Shown here one piece after another: positions 16,351 through 55,473 of a DNA stretch of 64,000 bases (positions are counted from its first letter, which is position 1; every line of letters begins with the position of its first letter). Source of the stretch: a phage; NCBI GenBank assembly GCA_029220445.1, contig GCA_029220445.1_3666.1. One strand, 5' to 3'. The notes under the pieces were generated by a model that did not search any database, was not told where the DNA came from, and saw only the letters and a list, made by a program, of their open reading frames with translations. The translations under genes were made by a program, and so were the position numbers.

Positions 16351-16746
16351 TTACTGAAACAGTGCGGATAAATTACCTTCTGGTGGGAACTTATCTGCCA
16401 AAAACGGTGTTAGCACAGTAGCCTTCTGAAGATCTGGGGTCCACTCGTTGTTCAGAACATCCCAGTAGTACGCAATGTTGCTGTGTGGGTGCCGCATTAC
16501 GAACTTTTTCCCTTCGTAGTCATCTGAAACCTCTACAGAAGAAATAACAACAGAATCTTCAAGGGTTTCTTCATAGAAAGATCCGCCTTCAAATTTCCAA
16601 CGAGATGCAAGAGCCCCTGCCTTGAACGCTGCAGATAACGGACTGTCGGCAAGAACATACATTTCTTGCACTCTGTCGCTGCGATCTTTACTTCTTACGT
16701 TGTACACAGTATCTGAGCTATACTCAACACGGTATAGGCTTACCAT
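16351..16746 (-). CDS. hypothetical protein (131 aa), paralogue of ORF 18553-18951
   Basis: Shared C-terminal block HP-S-YW-WTP with 18553-18951. Confidence 0.5.
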   Translation of the reverse strand: MVSLYRVEYSSDTVYNVRSKDRSDRVQEMYVLADSPLSAAFKAGALASRWKFEGGSFYEETLEDSVVISSVEVSDDYEGKKFVMRHPHSNIAYYWDVLNNEWTPDLQKATVLTPFLADKFPPEGNLSALFQ

Positions 16747-17078
16747 TACCGCACCTCCTCAATAACTTCCACATCTGAACCTACCACAAATGCAAAAGGA
16801 CAGGTTTCATGAAAGACATCCGGATCGCCGCCAAGCTTGCTAACAATTTCTCCACCACTAATAAACACAAGCTCACCGATATTCATCAGATTGCTGAAAT
16901 AGTATCCATAATGATTGAAGAATGCAGCAGGGTCAGGTAGACTAGTAGCCTCAAGTTCTACATCTGTTGAGATTACTTTCTTATCATAACCTCTCGCCTT
17001 CTGAGATGCAAGATCCGCAGAATCTTCAGGCGACCGGAGATGCACAGGAATTGTTTCACCAATAAAGCGTACTTTCAT
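16746..17078 (-). CDS. small acidic protein (110 aa)
   Basis: ATG 17078 (MKVRFIGE) preferred over TTG at 17105; ends VEVIEEVR. Confidence 0.5.
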   Translation of the reverse strand: MKVRFIGETIPVHLRSPEDSADLASQKARGYDKKVISTDVELEATSLPDPAAFFNHYGYYFSNLMNIGELVFISGGEIVSKLGGDPDVFHETCPFAFVVGSDVEVIEEVR

Positions 17079-17082
17079 ATTA

Positions 17083-17346
17083 TCACCCAACAACCATAGC
17101 TTCAAAAGGGGTCATGAACGAATAAACGGCATCATCATCTGCTTCAGGGAATGCTCCCAAAGACTTCATGTCTGAGCCCTTGACAAATACAAGGTTTTGA
17201 TCAAAAGCTTCTTGGGGATCAATCCGATACATATTTCGTAGAATATCGCTTACCTCCTCATCAAGAGGTGAGTATGCTGTGCACGTTTTTCCGATCAAGC
17301 TTTGAGAATCAGGGTATCCACCTGAAGTTTTAAAATAAACAATCAT
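17083..17346 (-). CDS. hypothetical protein (87 aa)
   Basis: ORF on minus strand. Confidence 0.5.
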   Translation of the reverse strand: MIVYFKTSGGYPDSQSLIGKTCTAYSPLDEEVSDILRNMYRIDPQEAFDQNLVFVKGSDMKSLGAFPEADDDAVYSFMTPFEAMVVG

Positions 17347-17437
17347 ATAGTATCACCTCTGGTAAGAGATTGGGATTCCTTTCCCACAAATAATTACAAA
17401 TCTTCCTTATCGAGGAAGTATGCTAATCCAAGCAGGA

Positions 17438-17707
17438 TTATTCCTCTACAATCTCATACACATCAGGAGTTACAATCAACTCTTCTCCGTTACCCGGTGC
17501 AACAAACACCACCAAACCTTCAGGTGTGTGCTTTTTAGCCATCTCGATAACATCTTCGCGCAGAGCTGGCTCCATCAGATCAAAACCTTCACCCAGGGCA
17601 TCACTAACCACCTTCATATAGTCCACTGGTTGTGCTTCAACAATCATGCCTTCAACCAGTCCACAGTTTTTGTCTGCCAGCTCAGTTTTGAATAATTTAA
17701 TTTTCAT
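17438..17707 (-). CDS. small acidic protein (89 aa), acidic-family member
   Basis: MKIKLFK start; GEGFDL motif; ends YEIVEE. Confidence 0.5.
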   Translation of the reverse strand: MKIKLFKTELADKNCGLVEGMIVEAQPVDYMKVVSDALGEGFDLMEPALREDVIEMAKKHTPEGLVVFVAPGNGEELIVTPDVYEIVEE

Positions 17708-17844
17708 TTAGAGGTCTCCTCAATTATTTGATATTAATAGCCGTAACCTAACACATTAACTACAATTGCGATTGCAAACATAATTTCAAAGCATGCAATC
17801 TCTACATTTGGGACTAATTTCTTAATCACACCCATTGTAGCACC

Positions 17845-18162
17845 TCATTCTCCAAAGTCAATCTTTACTTTGCCTTTCCCCTTACCTTTCTTTCCACCAC
17901 ATTTAGCCAGCTGACGTGCTGCAACATCTACCATACGGTCAGTTGCCTCGTAAGCATCACTGCCTTTAGCTTTGGCAATAACTTCTTTTCCAGAATTGTC
18001 AAAAATGAACGCCATAACTTCCTGGTGATCATTTTCAACTTTTACACTCACACGTGCATAGTTGGCAGAGGGGTGCAAACGCTCCAGCTTAGACATTTTG
18101 TGGGAAATGAAAGACACCATACCTTCAGTGATTTCTACGTTGCCAGTGATTTCAATTTGCAT
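17845..18162 (-). CDS. hpf: ribosome hibernation promoting factor / RaiA (YfiA) family homologue (105 aa) with Gly/Lys-rich tail
   Basis: N-terminus MQIEITGNVEITEGM and later KLE, KVE, ARQLAK blocks align with E. coli HPF (MQLNITGNNVEITEAL ... LARQLTK) from memory. Confidence 0.7.
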   Translation of the reverse strand: MQIEITGNVEITEGMVSFISHKMSKLERLHPSANYARVSVKVENDHQEVMAFIFDNSGKEVIAKAKGSDAYEATDRMVDVAARQLAKCGGKKGKGKGKVKIDFGE

Positions 18163-18244
18163 AACGTGTTCCTTTTAAAGAAGAGGGAACCAAACCCTCT
18201 TTGAAAACAATGATACTAAATCTGAAGCGTTGTGTCAACAGTTT

Positions 18245-18535
18245 TTACAGATTGTTGTCGATAGTATTTAAAATATCTACAGCAAGATCTGCCATTTTTC
18301 GAACATACTCTGCAAACTCAACAGGATCCTTGATCAAAGAATTTACAGGGTCGTACCCTAGAGCGTTCAAAATGGCTGCAGCATCTACAACCTTTTCATC
18401 ATTTGCAAAGATCTCTCCGTCAAACTTATAGGTCCATTTTGAGTCAATCTTGGCAGGGCATGGCTGGTCCATGCTTGTTACACCATCGTCTTTAACCTCT
18501 CCTGCGTTATCAATATTCAGAACTAAATCCATCAT
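18245..18535 (-). CDS. hypothetical acidic protein (96 aa)
   Basis: ORF on minus strand. Confidence 0.5.
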   Translation of the reverse strand: MMDLVLNIDNAGEVKDDGVTSMDQPCPAKIDSKWTYKFDGEIFANDEKVVDAAAILNALGYDPVNSLIKDPVEFAEYVRKMADLAVDILNTIDNNL

Positions 18536-18552
18536 AGTGGCACCTCACTGTT

Positions 18553-18951
18553 TCAGTTTAGCTTTTCTTCAACAACCCCATAGCTTGGGACAGAATCAAG
18601 AGCTTTCTGGTTTAAAAGTGGTGTAGCAGAATCTGCAAACGGTGTCCAAGTTTTTGTTCTGGAATTCCAGTAATGCTTCACTCTGGAATCTGGATGCACT
18701 ATAACAAAAACTTTTTCACTTGTCAACACATTAATTTCTTCTACACCCTTGCTGATAATTTCTCCGTCATAGCCCCCAGTCTGGTATCCTTCGTACCAGG
18801 TTCTTGCATAGGCATAGCCAGCCTGCCAGCATGCAGCCTCCTCCGAGGTGGAGACTACGTAGAAGTCCTTCTCAAATTCCGGAATACGCCCTTGCTTTAC
18901 GCTCCAAGCTCCGCGAATTTTCATTGTAACTTTGAACAGTTTATTTTTCAC
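18553..18951 (-). CDS. hypothetical protein (132 aa), paralogue of ORF 16351-16746
   Basis: Shared motif VHPDSRVKHYWNSRTKTWTP vs RHPHSNIAYYWDVLNNEWTP. Confidence 0.5.
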   Translation of the reverse strand: MKNKLFKVTMKIRGAWSVKQGRIPEFEKDFYVVSTSEEAACWQAGYAYARTWYEGYQTGGYDGEIISKGVEEINVLTSEKVFVIVHPDSRVKHYWNSRTKTWTPFADSATPLLNQKALDSVPSYGVVEEKLN

Positions 18952-18963
18952 AACGGTTACCCA

Positions 18964-19218
18964 TCACAGCTCTACAATATCTGCATCTGACCCTACCCCA
19001 AAGGCATAATAGGACTCTTCCCCGAAATAATATTCAGGTGCACCAGCGGTGATCAGGTCTGATCCTAAGATAAACACCACGTTGTGGCCTACATAACTGT
19101 GATGTTGCCGCACAGGATCATCCCACGGCAACCCTTCAAAGTATACCGCAGGGACGACCTTTCCTTTCAGGAAGGATTGCCCCAAGTAGACGTTAGAATC
19201 AAGAATTTTAACCTTCAT
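18964..19218 (-). CDS. small protein (84 aa), MKVK-LDS / GK-V / DL-AGA paralogue family (A1)
   Basis: Aligns by eye with 19208-19435 and 22767-23000. Confidence 0.55.
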   Translation of the reverse strand: MKVKILDSNVYLGQSFLKGKVVPAVYFEGLPWDDPVRQHHSYVGHNVVFILGSDLITAGAPEYYFGEESYYAFGVGSDADIVEL

Positions 19219-19435
19219 GATCGTCCTCCACTATCTCTACATCCTCACCTAGGGCAAAGTTGTAGGTCCACTGACTGTCAAAGCATTCCTGAGATGCACC
19301 AGCGGCAATAAGATCTGCCCCTTTTATTTTTAAAAGGTCAGGGTAATCTTCGTTAGGGACAGCAGTAAACACTTTCCCCACTAAAGGCTCCTGACCAATA
19401 TAGAATCTTGAATCTAAAACTTTAACTTTCATCAA
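19208..19435 (-). CDS. small protein (75 aa), paralogue family A2
   Basis: MMKVKVLDSRFYIGQEPLVGKVFTAV ... DLIAAGAS; overlaps A1 start. Confidence 0.55.
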   Translation of the reverse strand: MMKVKVLDSRFYIGQEPLVGKVFTAVPNEDYPDLLKIKGADLIAAGASQECFDSQWTYNFALGEDVEIVEDDHEG

Positions 19436-19719
19436 CGGTCTCCATCAGGTGGTTGTGGGACGTAAACACTGTTACGAATATCGTCCGCAGTATAGTAATA
19501 AGTGTCTCCAACCCTATCTCTGGCTGCAATGTACTCTGCTATACCAATAAGTGCCATTGATTTGGTGGCGTATCTTCCCCACTCGTTAGCTCCCCAGTAG
19601 AATTTAGACCAATAGGGAATAAGACCGAACAAATATACCTTTTGACGAACTTCCCAGTAAGTGCCTTTCCCGACAAGTTTAAACTCAACTTCACCACTGT
19701 TAATCTTTTTCATTATCAA
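19432..19719 (-). CDS. hypothetical aromatic-rich protein (95 aa)
   Basis: ATGA overlap with neighbours. Confidence 0.5.
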   Translation of the reverse strand: MIMKKINSGEVEFKLVGKGTYWEVRQKVYLFGLIPYWSKFYWGANEWGRYATKSMALIGIAEYIAARDRVGDTYYYTADDIRNSVYVPQPPDGDR

Positions 19720-54660: not shown

Positions 54661-54735
54661 GCCCTGTTAGCTTAGTGGATAAAGCAGCGGCCTTCTAAGC
54701 CGTTGACACTGGTTCGAGTCCAGTACGGGGTGCCA
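54661..54735 (+). tRNA. tRNA-Arg (anticodon UCU)
   Basis: Manual cloverleaf: acceptor gccctgt/acggggt, anticodon loop cttctaa, T-loop ttcgagt, CCA encoded. Confidence 0.8.
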
Positions 54736-54739
54736 AATT

Positions 54740-54826
54740 GGGGAGTTATCCCGTAGAGGTAGCGGTGTAGACTGTAAATCTATTGTCATTGCGACTCGGG
54801 TGGTTCGACTCCACCACTCCCCACCA
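54740..54826 (+). tRNA. tRNA-Tyr (anticodon GUA), type II with long variable arm
   Basis: Acceptor ggggagt/actcccc, anticodon loop ctgtaaa, T-arm ggtgg-ttcgact-ccacc, CCA encoded. Confidence 0.7.
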
Positions 54827-54940
54827 AATTTATATTTTTAGATGCATAAATAATACAGATAATGGCATTGATATTTATCGTCGTTTATACTAGTCACTAA
54901 CTGCTCGAAAATCAGTGTCATTATCAGTATAATTTATAAA

Positions 54941-55031
54941 GGAGGGTAGGGAGCAATGGTGCTCAAGCGGTCTTGAAAACCGTCCCGTTGAGGATGACTC
55001 GATGATGGTTCGATTCCATTACTCTCCGCCA
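54941..55031 (+). tRNA. tRNA-Ser (anticodon UGA), type II with long variable arm
   Basis: Acceptor ggagggt/actctcc, anticodon loop cttgaaa, T-loop ttcgatt, CCA encoded; position 8 is A (unusual). Confidence 0.65.
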
Positions 55032-55129
55032 CATTGTTGACCTTGTAATTAAGCGAAAGCCGGAAGCAGAACCGGATTATCAAATGTTACAGTCGTCATC
55101 GCCGACTAGCAACATGGTCAACATACTGA

Positions 55130-55226
55130 GCTAGGTAAGCCCTTTGGCAAGGGCGAGGATTTTTAATCCTGAAAATAGACGAGGTAGTCGTTGAATACAT
55201 AGGTGGTTCGATTCCATCACCTAGCA
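55130..55226 (+). tRNA. atypical tRNA-like element (97 nt): normal acceptor, D and T arms, 4-bp anticodon stem with loop tttttaa (UUU, Lys-like) and ~30-nt extra arm; may be a pseudogene
   Basis: Acceptor gctaggt/acctagc perfect; D arm gccc-tttggcaa-gggc; T arm ggtgg-ttcgatt-ccatc; no CCA. Confidence 0.35.
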
Positions 55227-55233
55227 CCTTTTT

Positions 55234-55309
55234 GCTGATGTAGCACAATCGGTAGTGCAATTGATTTGTAATCAATAGGTTGTAGGTTCAAGTCCTGCCA
55301 TCAGCACCA
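55234..55309 (+). tRNA. tRNA-Thr (anticodon UGU)
   Basis: Acceptor gctgatg/catcagc, D stem gcac/gtgc, anticodon arm attga-tttgtaa-tcaat, CCA encoded. Confidence 0.8.
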
Positions 55310-55310
55310 A

Positions 55311-55385
55311 GGCCCTGTAGCTGGAAGGTTCAAGCAAGCGACTCATAATCGCCAGACGGTGGTTCAATTCCACCCAGGGCCACCA
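55311..55385 (+). tRNA. tRNA-Met (anticodon CAU; elongator, or Ile2 if lysidine-modified)
   Basis: Acceptor ggccctg/cagggcc with G1-C72, anticodon loop ctcataa, T arm ggtgg-ttcaatt-ccacc, CCA encoded. Confidence 0.7.
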
Positions 55386-55396
55386 AATAGTAAATA

Positions 55397-55473
55397 CTCC
55401 GCGTAGCTCAGCTTGGTAGAGCGCCTGATTTGGGATCAGGAGGTCGAGTGTTCGAATCACTCCGTGGAGACCA
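55397..55473 (+). tRNA. tRNA-Pro (anticodon UGG)
   Basis: Acceptor ctccgcg/cgtggag (C1-G72 as in tRNA-Pro), anticodon arm cctga-tttggga-tcagg, T-loop ttcgaat, CCA encoded. Confidence 0.8.

What the first reader, a model, noticed from the sequence alone, without database searches (positions are those of the whole stretch)
17845..18162. Phage-encoded ribosome hibernation factor (HPF/RaiA) homologue inside the small-protein array
The 105-aa product aligns along its length with bacterial HPF/YfiA (MQIEITGNVEITEGM... KLE... KVE... ARQLAK), then ends in a Gly/Lys-rich tail (GGKKGKGKGKVK) absent from E. coli HPF as I recall it. A phage copy could modulate 70S dimerisation or translation during takeover, or counter host translational shutdown.
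Basis: partly seen in the sequence, partly recalled or inferred. Interest (0 to 1): 0.6.

Follow-up and report, generated by a model that had tools for sequence, protein, structure and literature searches.

The report
Known phage copy of ribosome hibernation factor
The window comes from an rV5-like E. coli phage, and this gene really encodes a relative of the bacterial ribosome hibernation factor HPF, but it was annotated years ago and studied in a 2019 paper, so the finding is correct and not new, and what the protein does during infection is still unknown.

Summary
Window 17845..18162 (minus strand) encodes a 105-aa protein that passes the curated cut-offs of Pfam Ribosomal_S30AE (48.3 vs 23.7 bits) and TIGR00741 HPF/YfiA (45.9 vs 40.9). 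[quoted passage not shown] It ends in a disordered Lys/Gly tail that E. coli HPF lacks.

The window is Escherichia phage PDX (Vequintavirus). The protein is 100% identical to rV5 ORF144, deposited as "sigma 54 modulation factor", and is labelled HPF/RaiA in dozens of relatives. Mizuno et al. 2019 (PMC6375957) expressed this exact protein in E. coli. They found it in crude extract but not in ribosomes pelleted through 500 mM NH4Cl, and it had no effect on 100S.

New here:
- dN/dS is 0.04-0.17.
- Two uncultured sister lineages (56-64% identity) keep the gene at the same position.
- The phage clade has a remodelled contact surface: K80, H55, T53 and H62 are replaced, E60 and E66 are reversed to Lys, and S/T64 is replaced by Lys.
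- A near-consensus sigma-70 promoter lies directly upstream.

Most likely it binds vacant host ribosomes at the decoding centre early in infection. This is inferred, not shown. Novelty: already known. Interest: low to moderate.

The parts
17845..18162 (-). hpf-like CDS (105 aa plus stop); orthologue of rV5 ORF144 / ABI79209 (100% identical protein)
   Evidence: ORF list. Pfam PF02482 48.3 bits vs cut-off 23.7. TIGR00741 45.9 vs 40.9. tblastn 100% identity to rV5 and others. dN/dS 0.04-0.17.
17896..18159 (-). Structured HPF/RaiA core, residues 2-89: strands 2-7, 33-43, 46-55, 60-67; helices 13-29, 70-89
   Evidence: AlphaFold2 model, block mean pLDDT 91-96 over residues 1-80 except 87 for 51-60, and 80 for 81-90. 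Foldseek: V. cholerae HPF 4hei TM 0.92, rmsd 0.9 A; E. coli HPF in the 100S ribosome 6h4n_x TM 0.87, rmsd 1.1 A.
17848..17901 (-). C-terminal Lys/Gly-rich tail, residues 88-105 (CGGKKGKGKGKVKIDFGE), net charge +4, predicted disordered from residue 91
   Evidence: pLDDT below 50 for residues 91-105. Charge count. Conserved in Vequintavirus, with mostly synonymous changes in phage Aya. The sister lineages P0004 and P0047 have tails that differ in sequence but are also basic, net +3.
18170..18174 (-). Shine-Dalgarno AAGGA, 7 nt upstream of the ATG
   Evidence: Read directly from the sequence. An RBS is annotated at the same place in phage Murica.
18210..18238 (-). Sigma-70-type promoter TTGACA-17-TATCAT (11/12 match) in the intergenic gap; equivalent to rV5 promoter P144
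   Evidence: Consensus scan. Annotated as 'Sigma70-type promoter; P144' in DQ832317. A TTGACA-17-AATTAT site sits at the same place in the sister lineage L002. This is a consensus match only; no transcript data.
18181..18201 (-). 7-bp hairpin (AAGAGGG/CCCUCUU) at the predicted 5' end of the hpf mRNA; weak evidence
   Evidence: RNA fold -9.9 kcal/mol, but z = -0.43 against shuffles, so no better than chance. Listed for completeness only.

Best explanation
This is the Vequintavirus hpf gene, a phage-borne short-type member of the HPF/RaiA (Ribosomal_S30AE) family. Shown here: family membership by sequence and by predicted fold; strong purifying selection; conservation at the same position in three phage lineages; and a near-consensus host-type (sigma-70) promoter directly upstream, which makes it the first gene of a small operon in the early small-protein region. 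Inferred: soon after infection the protein binds host 30S/70S ribosomes that carry no mRNA or tRNA. It would sit in the channel between the 30S head and body that HPF and RaiA occupy (A/P-site tRNA and mRNA positions), using the retained basic residues K22, K25, R28, K41, R83 and K87 and the phage-specific lysines K59, K64 and K66. The disordered polybasic tail would then run along the mRNA path towards the platform, as the RaiA tail and the long-HPF linker do. The likely result is RaiA-like: idle ribosomes are parked and shielded as 70S monomers, not as RMF-dependent 100S dimers, which keeps the ribosome pool intact for phage translation. The binding site, the path of the tail and the physiological outcome are all inferences.
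For: Pfam PF02482 E 1.8e-12, covering 83 of 88 profile positions. TIGR00741 is above its cut-off, and the HPF model scores far better than the RaiA model, 55.8 vs 17.6 bits. [quoted passage not shown] The 36 Foldseek PDB hits with E <= 0.001 are all HPF, RaiA, protein Y and related ribosome-hibernation proteins, many of them ribosome-bound. Residues that contact 16S rRNA in Gram-negative HPFs (bioRxiv 10.1101/2025.10.07.680626) are retained in all three phage lineages at K26, R83 and K87, and Q29 becomes Arg. dN/dS is 0.04-0.17, for example 25 synonymous vs 6 non-synonymous differences between PDX and Aya. The gene is present in 119 phage records. Sister lineages at 56-64% identity keep it at the same position, and the one scanned (L002) has an upstream TTGACA promoter. 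Promoter P144. Growth to OD 1 under arabinose induction of the identical rV5 protein fits a factor that acts only on vacant ribosomes. RaiA's longer C-terminal tail heads towards the RMF site, and RaiA blocks 100S formation.
Against: The only experiment on this exact protein found none of its peptides in 70S/100S fractions and no change in 100S (PMC6375957). The authors themselves listed growth phase and the salt wash as possible reasons. In all three phage lineages several contact residues that are invariant in the 33 bacterial HPFs compared here are replaced: K80 to V/T/I, H55 to F, T53 to F/R/R, H62 to I/M/L and E60 to K. The protein scores 55.8 bits against the 125-bit cut-off of the enterobacterial HPF equivalog model. 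The RaiA tail is acidic (net -4) and the phage tail is basic (+4), so the tail analogy rests on length and direction only. There are no transcript, infection or binding data for any Vequintavirus hpf.
Confidence: 0.55

Rival explanations
1. Anti-hibernation competitor, the hypothesis of Mizuno et al. 2019. The phage protein binds the same site weakly and reversibly, displaces or excludes host HPF, RaiA and RMF, prevents or dissolves 100S dimers in starved or stationary-phase hosts, and so keeps ribosomes available for phage mRNAs. Its role would be pro-translation, not parking.
For: The hypothesis is stated in PMC6375957. Loss of K80 and of the H55/E60 pair that contacts uS9 fits lower affinity, and so does the absence from salt-washed ribosomes. 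The longer tail could clash with RMF as the RaiA tail does. The protein was not toxic when expressed.
Against: Ectopic expression did not reduce the small 100S peak, although the cells were late-exponential with little 100S present. The extra lysines K59, K64 and K66 and the +4 tail argue for more RNA affinity, not less. A protein occupying the A/P sites must itself leave before translation can start, so any net benefit is unproven.
Confidence: 0.2
2. Neofunctionalised HPF fold. The protein keeps the double-stranded-RNA-binding-like alpha/beta fold but no longer targets the ribosomal decoding centre. It would bind another RNA or protein, for example an mRNA, a tRNA, or a host factor, as S. aureus HPF binds YwlG.
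For: It was not found on ribosomes. The beta3-beta4 face is remodelled in a fixed, clade-wide way (F54, K59, K64, K66) and K80 is lost, with these differences conserved across lineages only 56-64% identical, which suggests adaptation and not decay. It is far from every bacterial HPF: no bacterial HPF aligned here exceeds 45% identity, and only 22 hits reach E<1e-3 among 1.8 billion representatives. A second partner for an HPF has precedent (PMC9522360, listed).
Against: Roughly half of the known rRNA-contact positions are retained. Every significant structural neighbour is a ribosome hibernation factor. No alternative partner is suggested by the neighbouring genes, which have no Pfam family matches.
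Confidence: 0.15
3. Functionless passenger: a host gene picked up by chance and carried along without benefit.
For: Phages do capture host genes, and no phenotype is known.
Against: dN/dS is 0.04-0.17. The gene is retained in 119 records and in sister lineages despite saturated synonymous divergence. It has its own promoter and Shine-Dalgarno sequence. The protein is only 37-45% identical to host-type HPFs, so the acquisition is old.
Confidence: 0.03

Closest known systems
rV5 ORF144 / ABI79209 ('sigma 54 modulation factor'; viral HPF of Mizuno et al. 2019, PMC6375957)
   Same: The protein sequence is 100% identical, the genomic position is the same, and the upstream promoter P144 is the same. 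It is the same gene in a sister isolate.
   Different: Nothing differs at the protein level. In the copy of the PDX record searched here, no annotated feature lay under the matching 2.5-kb stretch.
Enterobacterial short HPF (YhbH; E. coli HPF, PDB 2rql, 4v8h, 6h4n)
   Same: The fold and the length of the core are the same, with 41-42% identity over residues 1-89 and a nearly identical N-terminus, MQ(I/L)xITGNVEITE. K23, K26, K42, R83 and K87 are retained.
   Different: It scores 55.8 bits against the 125-bit equivalog cut-off. It is 10 residues longer, with a Gly/Lys tail. K80, H55, T53 and H62 are replaced, and E60 and E66 are reversed to Lys. pI is 8.7 vs 6.5. It lies in a phage early operon, not the host chromosome. 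The published test showed no promotion of 100S.
RaiA / YfiA / protein Y (E. coli, PDB 4v8i, 1n3g)
   Same: The fold is the same (TM 0.73-0.86). Both have a disordered C-terminal extension beyond helix alpha2, and in RaiA that extension projects towards the RMF site and prevents 100S formation.
   Different: The RaiA model scores only 17.6 bits against a 158-bit cut-off. The RaiA tail is 26 residues and acidic (net -4), while the phage tail is 18 residues and basic (+4).
Other phage HPF-like proteins (Cronobacter phage GAP32 K4F6Q6, Escherichia phage PBECO4 L7TII8, Xanthomonas phage XaC1; phrog_8990)
   Same: They have the same fold and are also phage-encoded.
   Different: Identity is only 19-25% in the structural alignments. 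They belong to a different PHROG (8990 vs 12469), and the phages involved include jumbo phages (GAP32 358.7 kb; XaC1 349 kb). These look like independent acquisitions, as Mizuno et al. also concluded.

Membership tests
HPF/RaiA superfamily (Pfam PF02482 Ribosomal_S30AE; TIGR00741 HPF/YfiA family) | Profile match above the curated gathering or trusted cut-off over most of the domain | tested here: met
   PF02482 scores 48.3 bits against a 23.7 cut-off, covering profile positions 1-83 of 88. TIGR00741 scores 45.9 against 40.9.
HPF/RaiA superfamily (Pfam PF02482 Ribosomal_S30AE; TIGR00741 HPF/YfiA family) | [quoted passage not shown] | tested here: met
   The AF2 model has E2-7, H13-29, E33-43, E46-55, E60-67, H70-89 with mean pLDDT 84. 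Foldseek gives 4hei TM 0.92 at 0.9 A and 6h4n_x TM 0.87 at 1.1 A.
HPF/RaiA superfamily (Pfam PF02482 Ribosomal_S30AE; TIGR00741 HPF/YfiA family) | Conserved basic track on helix alpha2 (K80, R83, K87, K89, K91) and other 16S or uS9 contact residues | tested here: inconclusive
   R83 and K87 are kept, and K91 is kept if the helix register is followed. K80 becomes V/T/I and K89 becomes G. K26 is kept and Q29 becomes R. H55/E60 become F54/K59, T53 becomes F/R/R and H62 becomes I/M/L.
HPF/RaiA superfamily (Pfam PF02482 Ribosomal_S30AE; TIGR00741 HPF/YfiA family) | Binds the 30S decoding channel of vacant ribosomes | not testable with these tools
   The published test on the identical protein found it absent from ribosomes pelleted through 500 mM NH4Cl (PMC6375957). 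That result does not settle the question.
Enterobacterial short HPF (NCBIfam NF007780 equivalog) | Score at or above the 125-bit equivalog cut-off | tested here: not met
   The score is 55.8 bits. Identity to the 33 bacterial HPFs aligned here is 37-45%.
Enterobacterial short HPF (NCBIfam NF007780 equivalog) | About 95 aa with the short KHKDKLKQH C-terminus | tested here: not met
   The protein has 105 aa and ends CGGKKGKGKGKVKIDFGE.
Enterobacterial short HPF (NCBIfam NF007780 equivalog) | Converts RMF-induced 90S dimers to 100S | not testable with these tools
   Mizuno et al. saw no discernible effect on 100S in late-exponential cells.
RaiA / YfiA (NCBIfam NF007654 equivalog) | Score at or above the 158-bit equivalog cut-off | tested here: not met
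   The score is 17.6 bits.
RaiA / YfiA (NCBIfam NF007654 equivalog) | Extended flexible C-terminal tail beyond alpha2 that interferes with RMF | tested here: inconclusive
   An extended disordered tail is present (residues 91-105 have pLDDT below 50), but it is shorter than RaiA's and of opposite charge. Interference with RMF cannot be tested here.
Long HPF (N-terminal S30AE domain plus C-terminal dimerisation domain) | C-terminal dimerisation domain after a linker | tested here: not met
   PF02482 is the only Pfam match. The protein ends 16 residues after helix alpha2.

The most novel reading that the evidence does not exclude
The Vequintavirus protein may not be a plain copy of HPF. It could be a re-engineered hibernation factor, with the uS9- and m2G966-facing surface rebuilt (F54, K59, K64, K66), K80 lost and a polybasic tail added. 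During infection it would either block host-imposed ribosome shutdown (RMF/HPF 100S formation, or dormancy triggered by defence systems) or shield ribosomes from nucleases. That would make ribosome hibernation a direct point of conflict between phage and host.
Probability: 0.25. Interest if true: 0.6.

Novelty: already known. Interest (0 to 1): 0.3.

Why it matters
Phage genes that touch the ribosome directly are rare. A phage-encoded hibernation factor raises the question of whether phages park, protect or reawaken host ribosomes, which bears on infection of starved or dormant bacteria and so on phage therapy. That question has been open since the 2019 report, whose single experiment was inconclusive. 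Those positions are concrete targets for mutagenesis. The existence of the gene is not news.

Tried and rejected
1. Chance ORF or mis-called frame: rejected by the profile matches, dN/dS, the Shine-Dalgarno sequence, the promoter and published peptides.
2. Recent capture from the E. coli host: rejected. Identity to enterobacterial HPFs is only 37-45%, while those are highly similar to one another in the alignment. A full-library phmmer search found just 22 hits with E<1e-3, the best bacterial one at E 2.5e-7. No bacterial sequence examined shares the phage-specific substitutions.
3. Second HPF copy next door: the 89-aa ORF at 17438..17707 is labelled 'sigma 54 modulation factor' in several GenBank records but has no S30AE match. 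The label appears to have slipped onto the wrong gene and then been copied.
4. Functional clues from neighbouring genes: ten flanking ORFs gave no Pfam family match.
5. A structured 5' UTR element: the hairpin folds no better than shuffled sequence, z = -0.43.
6. P0122, a 1160-aa protein with eight partial matches to the query: it is a repetitive PPC-domain protein and the match is spurious.
7. More distant phage relatives in IMG/VR: only two near-identical loci were found.
The library does not cover most subscription journals.

Full report
**1. Observation**

Window 17845..18162 holds an ATG-initiated ORF of 105 codons on the minus strand. An AAGGA Shine-Dalgarno sequence lies 7 nt before the ATG (18174..18170). 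A TTGACA-17-TATCAT promoter-like site (11/12 match) fills the intergenic gap at 18238..18210.

**2. Identity of the window**

Megablast of 17000-19500 gives a 100% match to Escherichia phage PDX (MG963916.1). It also gives matches at more than 90% identity to about 120 other records, nearly all of them rV5-like phages of the genus Vequintavirus.

A tblastn search with the protein finds 119 phage records. All but one are at least 94% identical, and that one is a Salmonella genome contig present in the collection. The protein is 100% identical to rV5 ORF144 (ABI79209). That entry is deposited as "sigma 54 modulation factor", with an annotated sigma-70 promoter P144 at the position found here. 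Other records call it "ribosome hibernation promoting factor", "RaiA" or "ribosome hibernation factor".

**3. Family membership**

| Model | Score (bits) | Curated cut-off | Result |
|---|---|---|---|
| Pfam PF02482 Ribosomal_S30AE | 48.3 (E 1.8e-12, profile 1-83 of 88) | 23.7 | passed |
| TIGR00741 HPF/YfiA family | 45.9 | 40.9 | passed |
| NF007780 enterobacterial HPF equivalog | 55.8 | 125 | failed |
| NF007654 RaiA equivalog | 17.6 | 158 | failed |

The protein is therefore a genuine member of the superfamily. It is closer to short HPF than to RaiA, but it is an orthologue of neither.

PDB sequence search puts E. coli HPF first (2rql, 4v8h, 6h4n; E about 5e-12, residues 1-89 against 1-89). 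An AlphaFold2 model built on a 36-sequence alignment has mean pLDDT 84. Its element order is strand 2-7, helix 13-29, strands 33-43, 46-55 and 60-67, then helix 70-89, followed by a tail at 91-105 with pLDDT below 50.

Foldseek against the PDB returns V. cholerae HPF (TM 0.92, rmsd 0.9 A) and E. coli HPF from the 100S ribosome (TM 0.87, rmsd 1.1 A). All 36 hits with E <= 0.001 are HPF, RaiA, protein Y and related ribosome-hibernation proteins.

**4. Already published**

Mizuno et al. 2019 (Nat Commun 10:752, PMC6375957) list rV5 ABI79209 and five sister phages as encoding HPF. They note that the phage sequences cluster among gammaproteobacterial sequences. They propose that viral HPF might compete with cellular HPF to prevent ribosome dimers.

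They expressed this exact protein from pBAD24 in E. coli NM522. They detected four peptides in crude extract, including the C-terminal VKIDFGE, so the full-length protein with its tail is made. They found no peptides in 70S or 100S fractions and no effect on 100S.

Their cells were harvested at OD600 1, and the ribosomes were pelleted for 20 h through 500 mM NH4Cl. The authors name growth phase, salt stripping and genuine loss of binding as alternative explanations. From my own recollection, not checked here, host RMF, HPF and RaiA are also removed by high-salt washing, so I regard the negative result as uninformative on binding.

A 2020 paper repeats the annotation for five more rV5-like phages (PMC6969025).

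*Selection.* Nei-Gojobori dN/dS among seven Vequintavirus hpf genes is 0.04-0.17. PDX against Aya, for example, shows 25 synonymous and 6 non-synonymous differences. The tail codons change mostly synonymously.

*Deeper conservation.* Two uncultured lineages encode proteins 64% (P0004) and 56% (P0047) identical. They sit at the same position in phage-like contigs, up to about 126 kb for P0004 and about 33 kb for P0047, and the P0004 locus scanned (L002) has an upstream TTGACA promoter. In this region the P0004 locus is only about 75% identical in nucleotide sequence to Vequintavirus over a third of its length. Their tails differ in sequence but are also basic, with net charge +3.

*Distance from hosts.* The 33 bacterial HPFs aligned here are 37-45% identical to the phage protein. 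A scan of 1.8 billion representatives finds only 22 hits at E<1e-3. The capture is therefore old.

*A remodelled contact surface.* Contact residues were taken from recent cryo-EM structures of Gram-negative hibernating ribosomes (bioRxiv 10.1101/2025.10.07.680626) and mapped onto the three phage lineages:

| E. coli HPF residue | Role stated in the preprint | Phage lineages (PDX / P0004 / P0047) |
|---|---|---|
| K23, K42 | not listed as contacts; conserved Lys in the bacterial HPFs aligned | kept (K22, K41) |
| K26 | 16S phosphates near m3U1498 | kept (K25) |
| R83, K87 | alpha2 basic track | kept |
| Q29 | 16S phosphates near m3U1498 | Arg (R28) |
| K80 | alpha2 basic track | V / T / I |
| T53 | m2G966 contact motif | F / R / R |
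| H62 | m2G966 contact motif | I / M / L |
| H55 | pair contacting the uS9 C-terminus | F (F54) |
| E60 | pair contacting the uS9 C-terminus | K (K59) |
| S/T64, E66 | beta4 positions; the preprint says beta4 takes part in binding | K, K |

No bacterial HPF examined shows this pattern. Overall pI rises from 6.5 in E. coli HPF to 8.7-9.7 in the phage proteins. Because these changes are fixed across lineages that are otherwise only 56-64% identical, they look like adaptation and not decay.

*Tail variants.* In Murica and APCEc02, single-base indels in G/A runs truncate the tail. These may be sequencing errors.

**6. Mechanism**

The most likely reading (confidence about 0.55) is that the protein still does what its fold does: it binds the decoding-centre channel of vacant 30S/70S ribosomes. 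The timing is probably early, because a host-type promoter sits directly upstream and the gene lies in the small-protein region typical of takeover genes. No transcript data support this timing.

The extended basic tail would follow the mRNA path towards the platform. RaiA's longer tail heads in the same direction towards the RMF site, and RaiA blocks 100S formation. I therefore favour a RaiA-like outcome, with 70S ribosomes parked and protected, over promotion of 100S. This fits the unchanged 100S peak in the 2019 experiment, but that evidence is weak.

The rival readings are:
- an anti-hibernation competitor (0.2);
- a neofunctionalised fold with a non-ribosomal target (0.15);
- a functionless passenger (0.03, contradicted by dN/dS).

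**7. Comparison and novelty**

The gene is the same as rV5 ORF144. It works like, and belongs to, the HPF/RaiA superfamily. It is not an equivalog of enterobacterial HPF or of RaiA, and it lacks the C-terminal domain of long HPF.

Other phages carry unrelated HPF-like acquisitions (phrog_8990), for example GAP32, PBECO4 and XaC1.

The finding is correct but already known. The open biological question of what a phage gains from a hibernation factor remains moderately interesting, and the clade-specific substitutions identified here give it a sharper experimental handle. Interest is 0.3.

Noticed in passing
window 17438..17707 (-), 89-aa ORF two genes downstream of hpf: This ORF is labelled 'sigma 54 modulation factor' in the records of phages APCEc02, ECP32, nomo and nom, but it has no Ribosomal_S30AE or other Pfam match. 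The label appears to have slipped onto the wrong gene in APCEc02 and then been copied.
   Followed up: yes
hpf orthologues in phage records OR062525, OR062530, MT884008-10: In several records the hpf gene is annotated 'ATP-dependent protease La Type I', which is evidently wrong. In others it is 'hypothetical protein'. In the copy of the PDX record searched, no annotated feature lay under the matching stretch.
   Followed up: partly
Records MG065635-MG065690 ('Campylobacter phage ...'): Eighteen records labelled as Campylobacter jejuni phages are 97-98% identical to E. coli rV5-like phages across this region. The host label looks doubtful.
   Followed up: no
window 17848..17901 (-) and the matching stretch of L007 (Murica) and L008 (APCEc02): The tail-coding DNA is a run of GGN/AAR codons. 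Murica and APCEc02 carry single-base indels in G/A homopolymers that frameshift and shorten the tail. These are either sequencing errors or natural slippage variants. Phages of the Murica clade also have GNNVEIT, as in bacterial HPF, where PDX has GNVEIT.
   Followed up: partly
window 17734..17835 (-), 33-aa ORF directly downstream of hpf: This small hydrophobic ORF (MGVIKKLVPNVEIACFEIMFAIAIVVNVLGYGY) is annotated in rV5 (ORF145), Murica, V18 and others, and is probably co-transcribed with hpf. No gene is called at that position in the divergent P0004 and P0047 lineages.
   Followed up: no
window 16351..16746 (-) and 18553..18951 (-); 18964..19218 (-) and 19208..19435 (-): The small-protein array contains paralogue pairs. 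The 131-aa and 132-aa ORFs are 28% identical (E 5e-11). The adjacent 84-aa and 75-aa ORFs are 41% identical (E 2e-16). None has a Pfam match.
   Followed up: partly
window 54661..55473 (+): There is a cluster of seven tRNA calls (Arg-TCT, Tyr, Ser, Thr, Met, Pro). One is a 99-nt call at 55130..55228 with a four-base anticodon (atcc) and no assigned amino acid. It may be a pseudo-tRNA, an intron-bearing tRNA or an ARAGORN artefact.
   Followed up: no
window 18181..18201 (-): A 7-bp hairpin sits at the predicted 5' end of the hpf transcript, between the -10 box and the Shine-Dalgarno sequence. It folds no better than shuffled sequence (z = -0.43), so it may mean nothing.
   Followed up: yes
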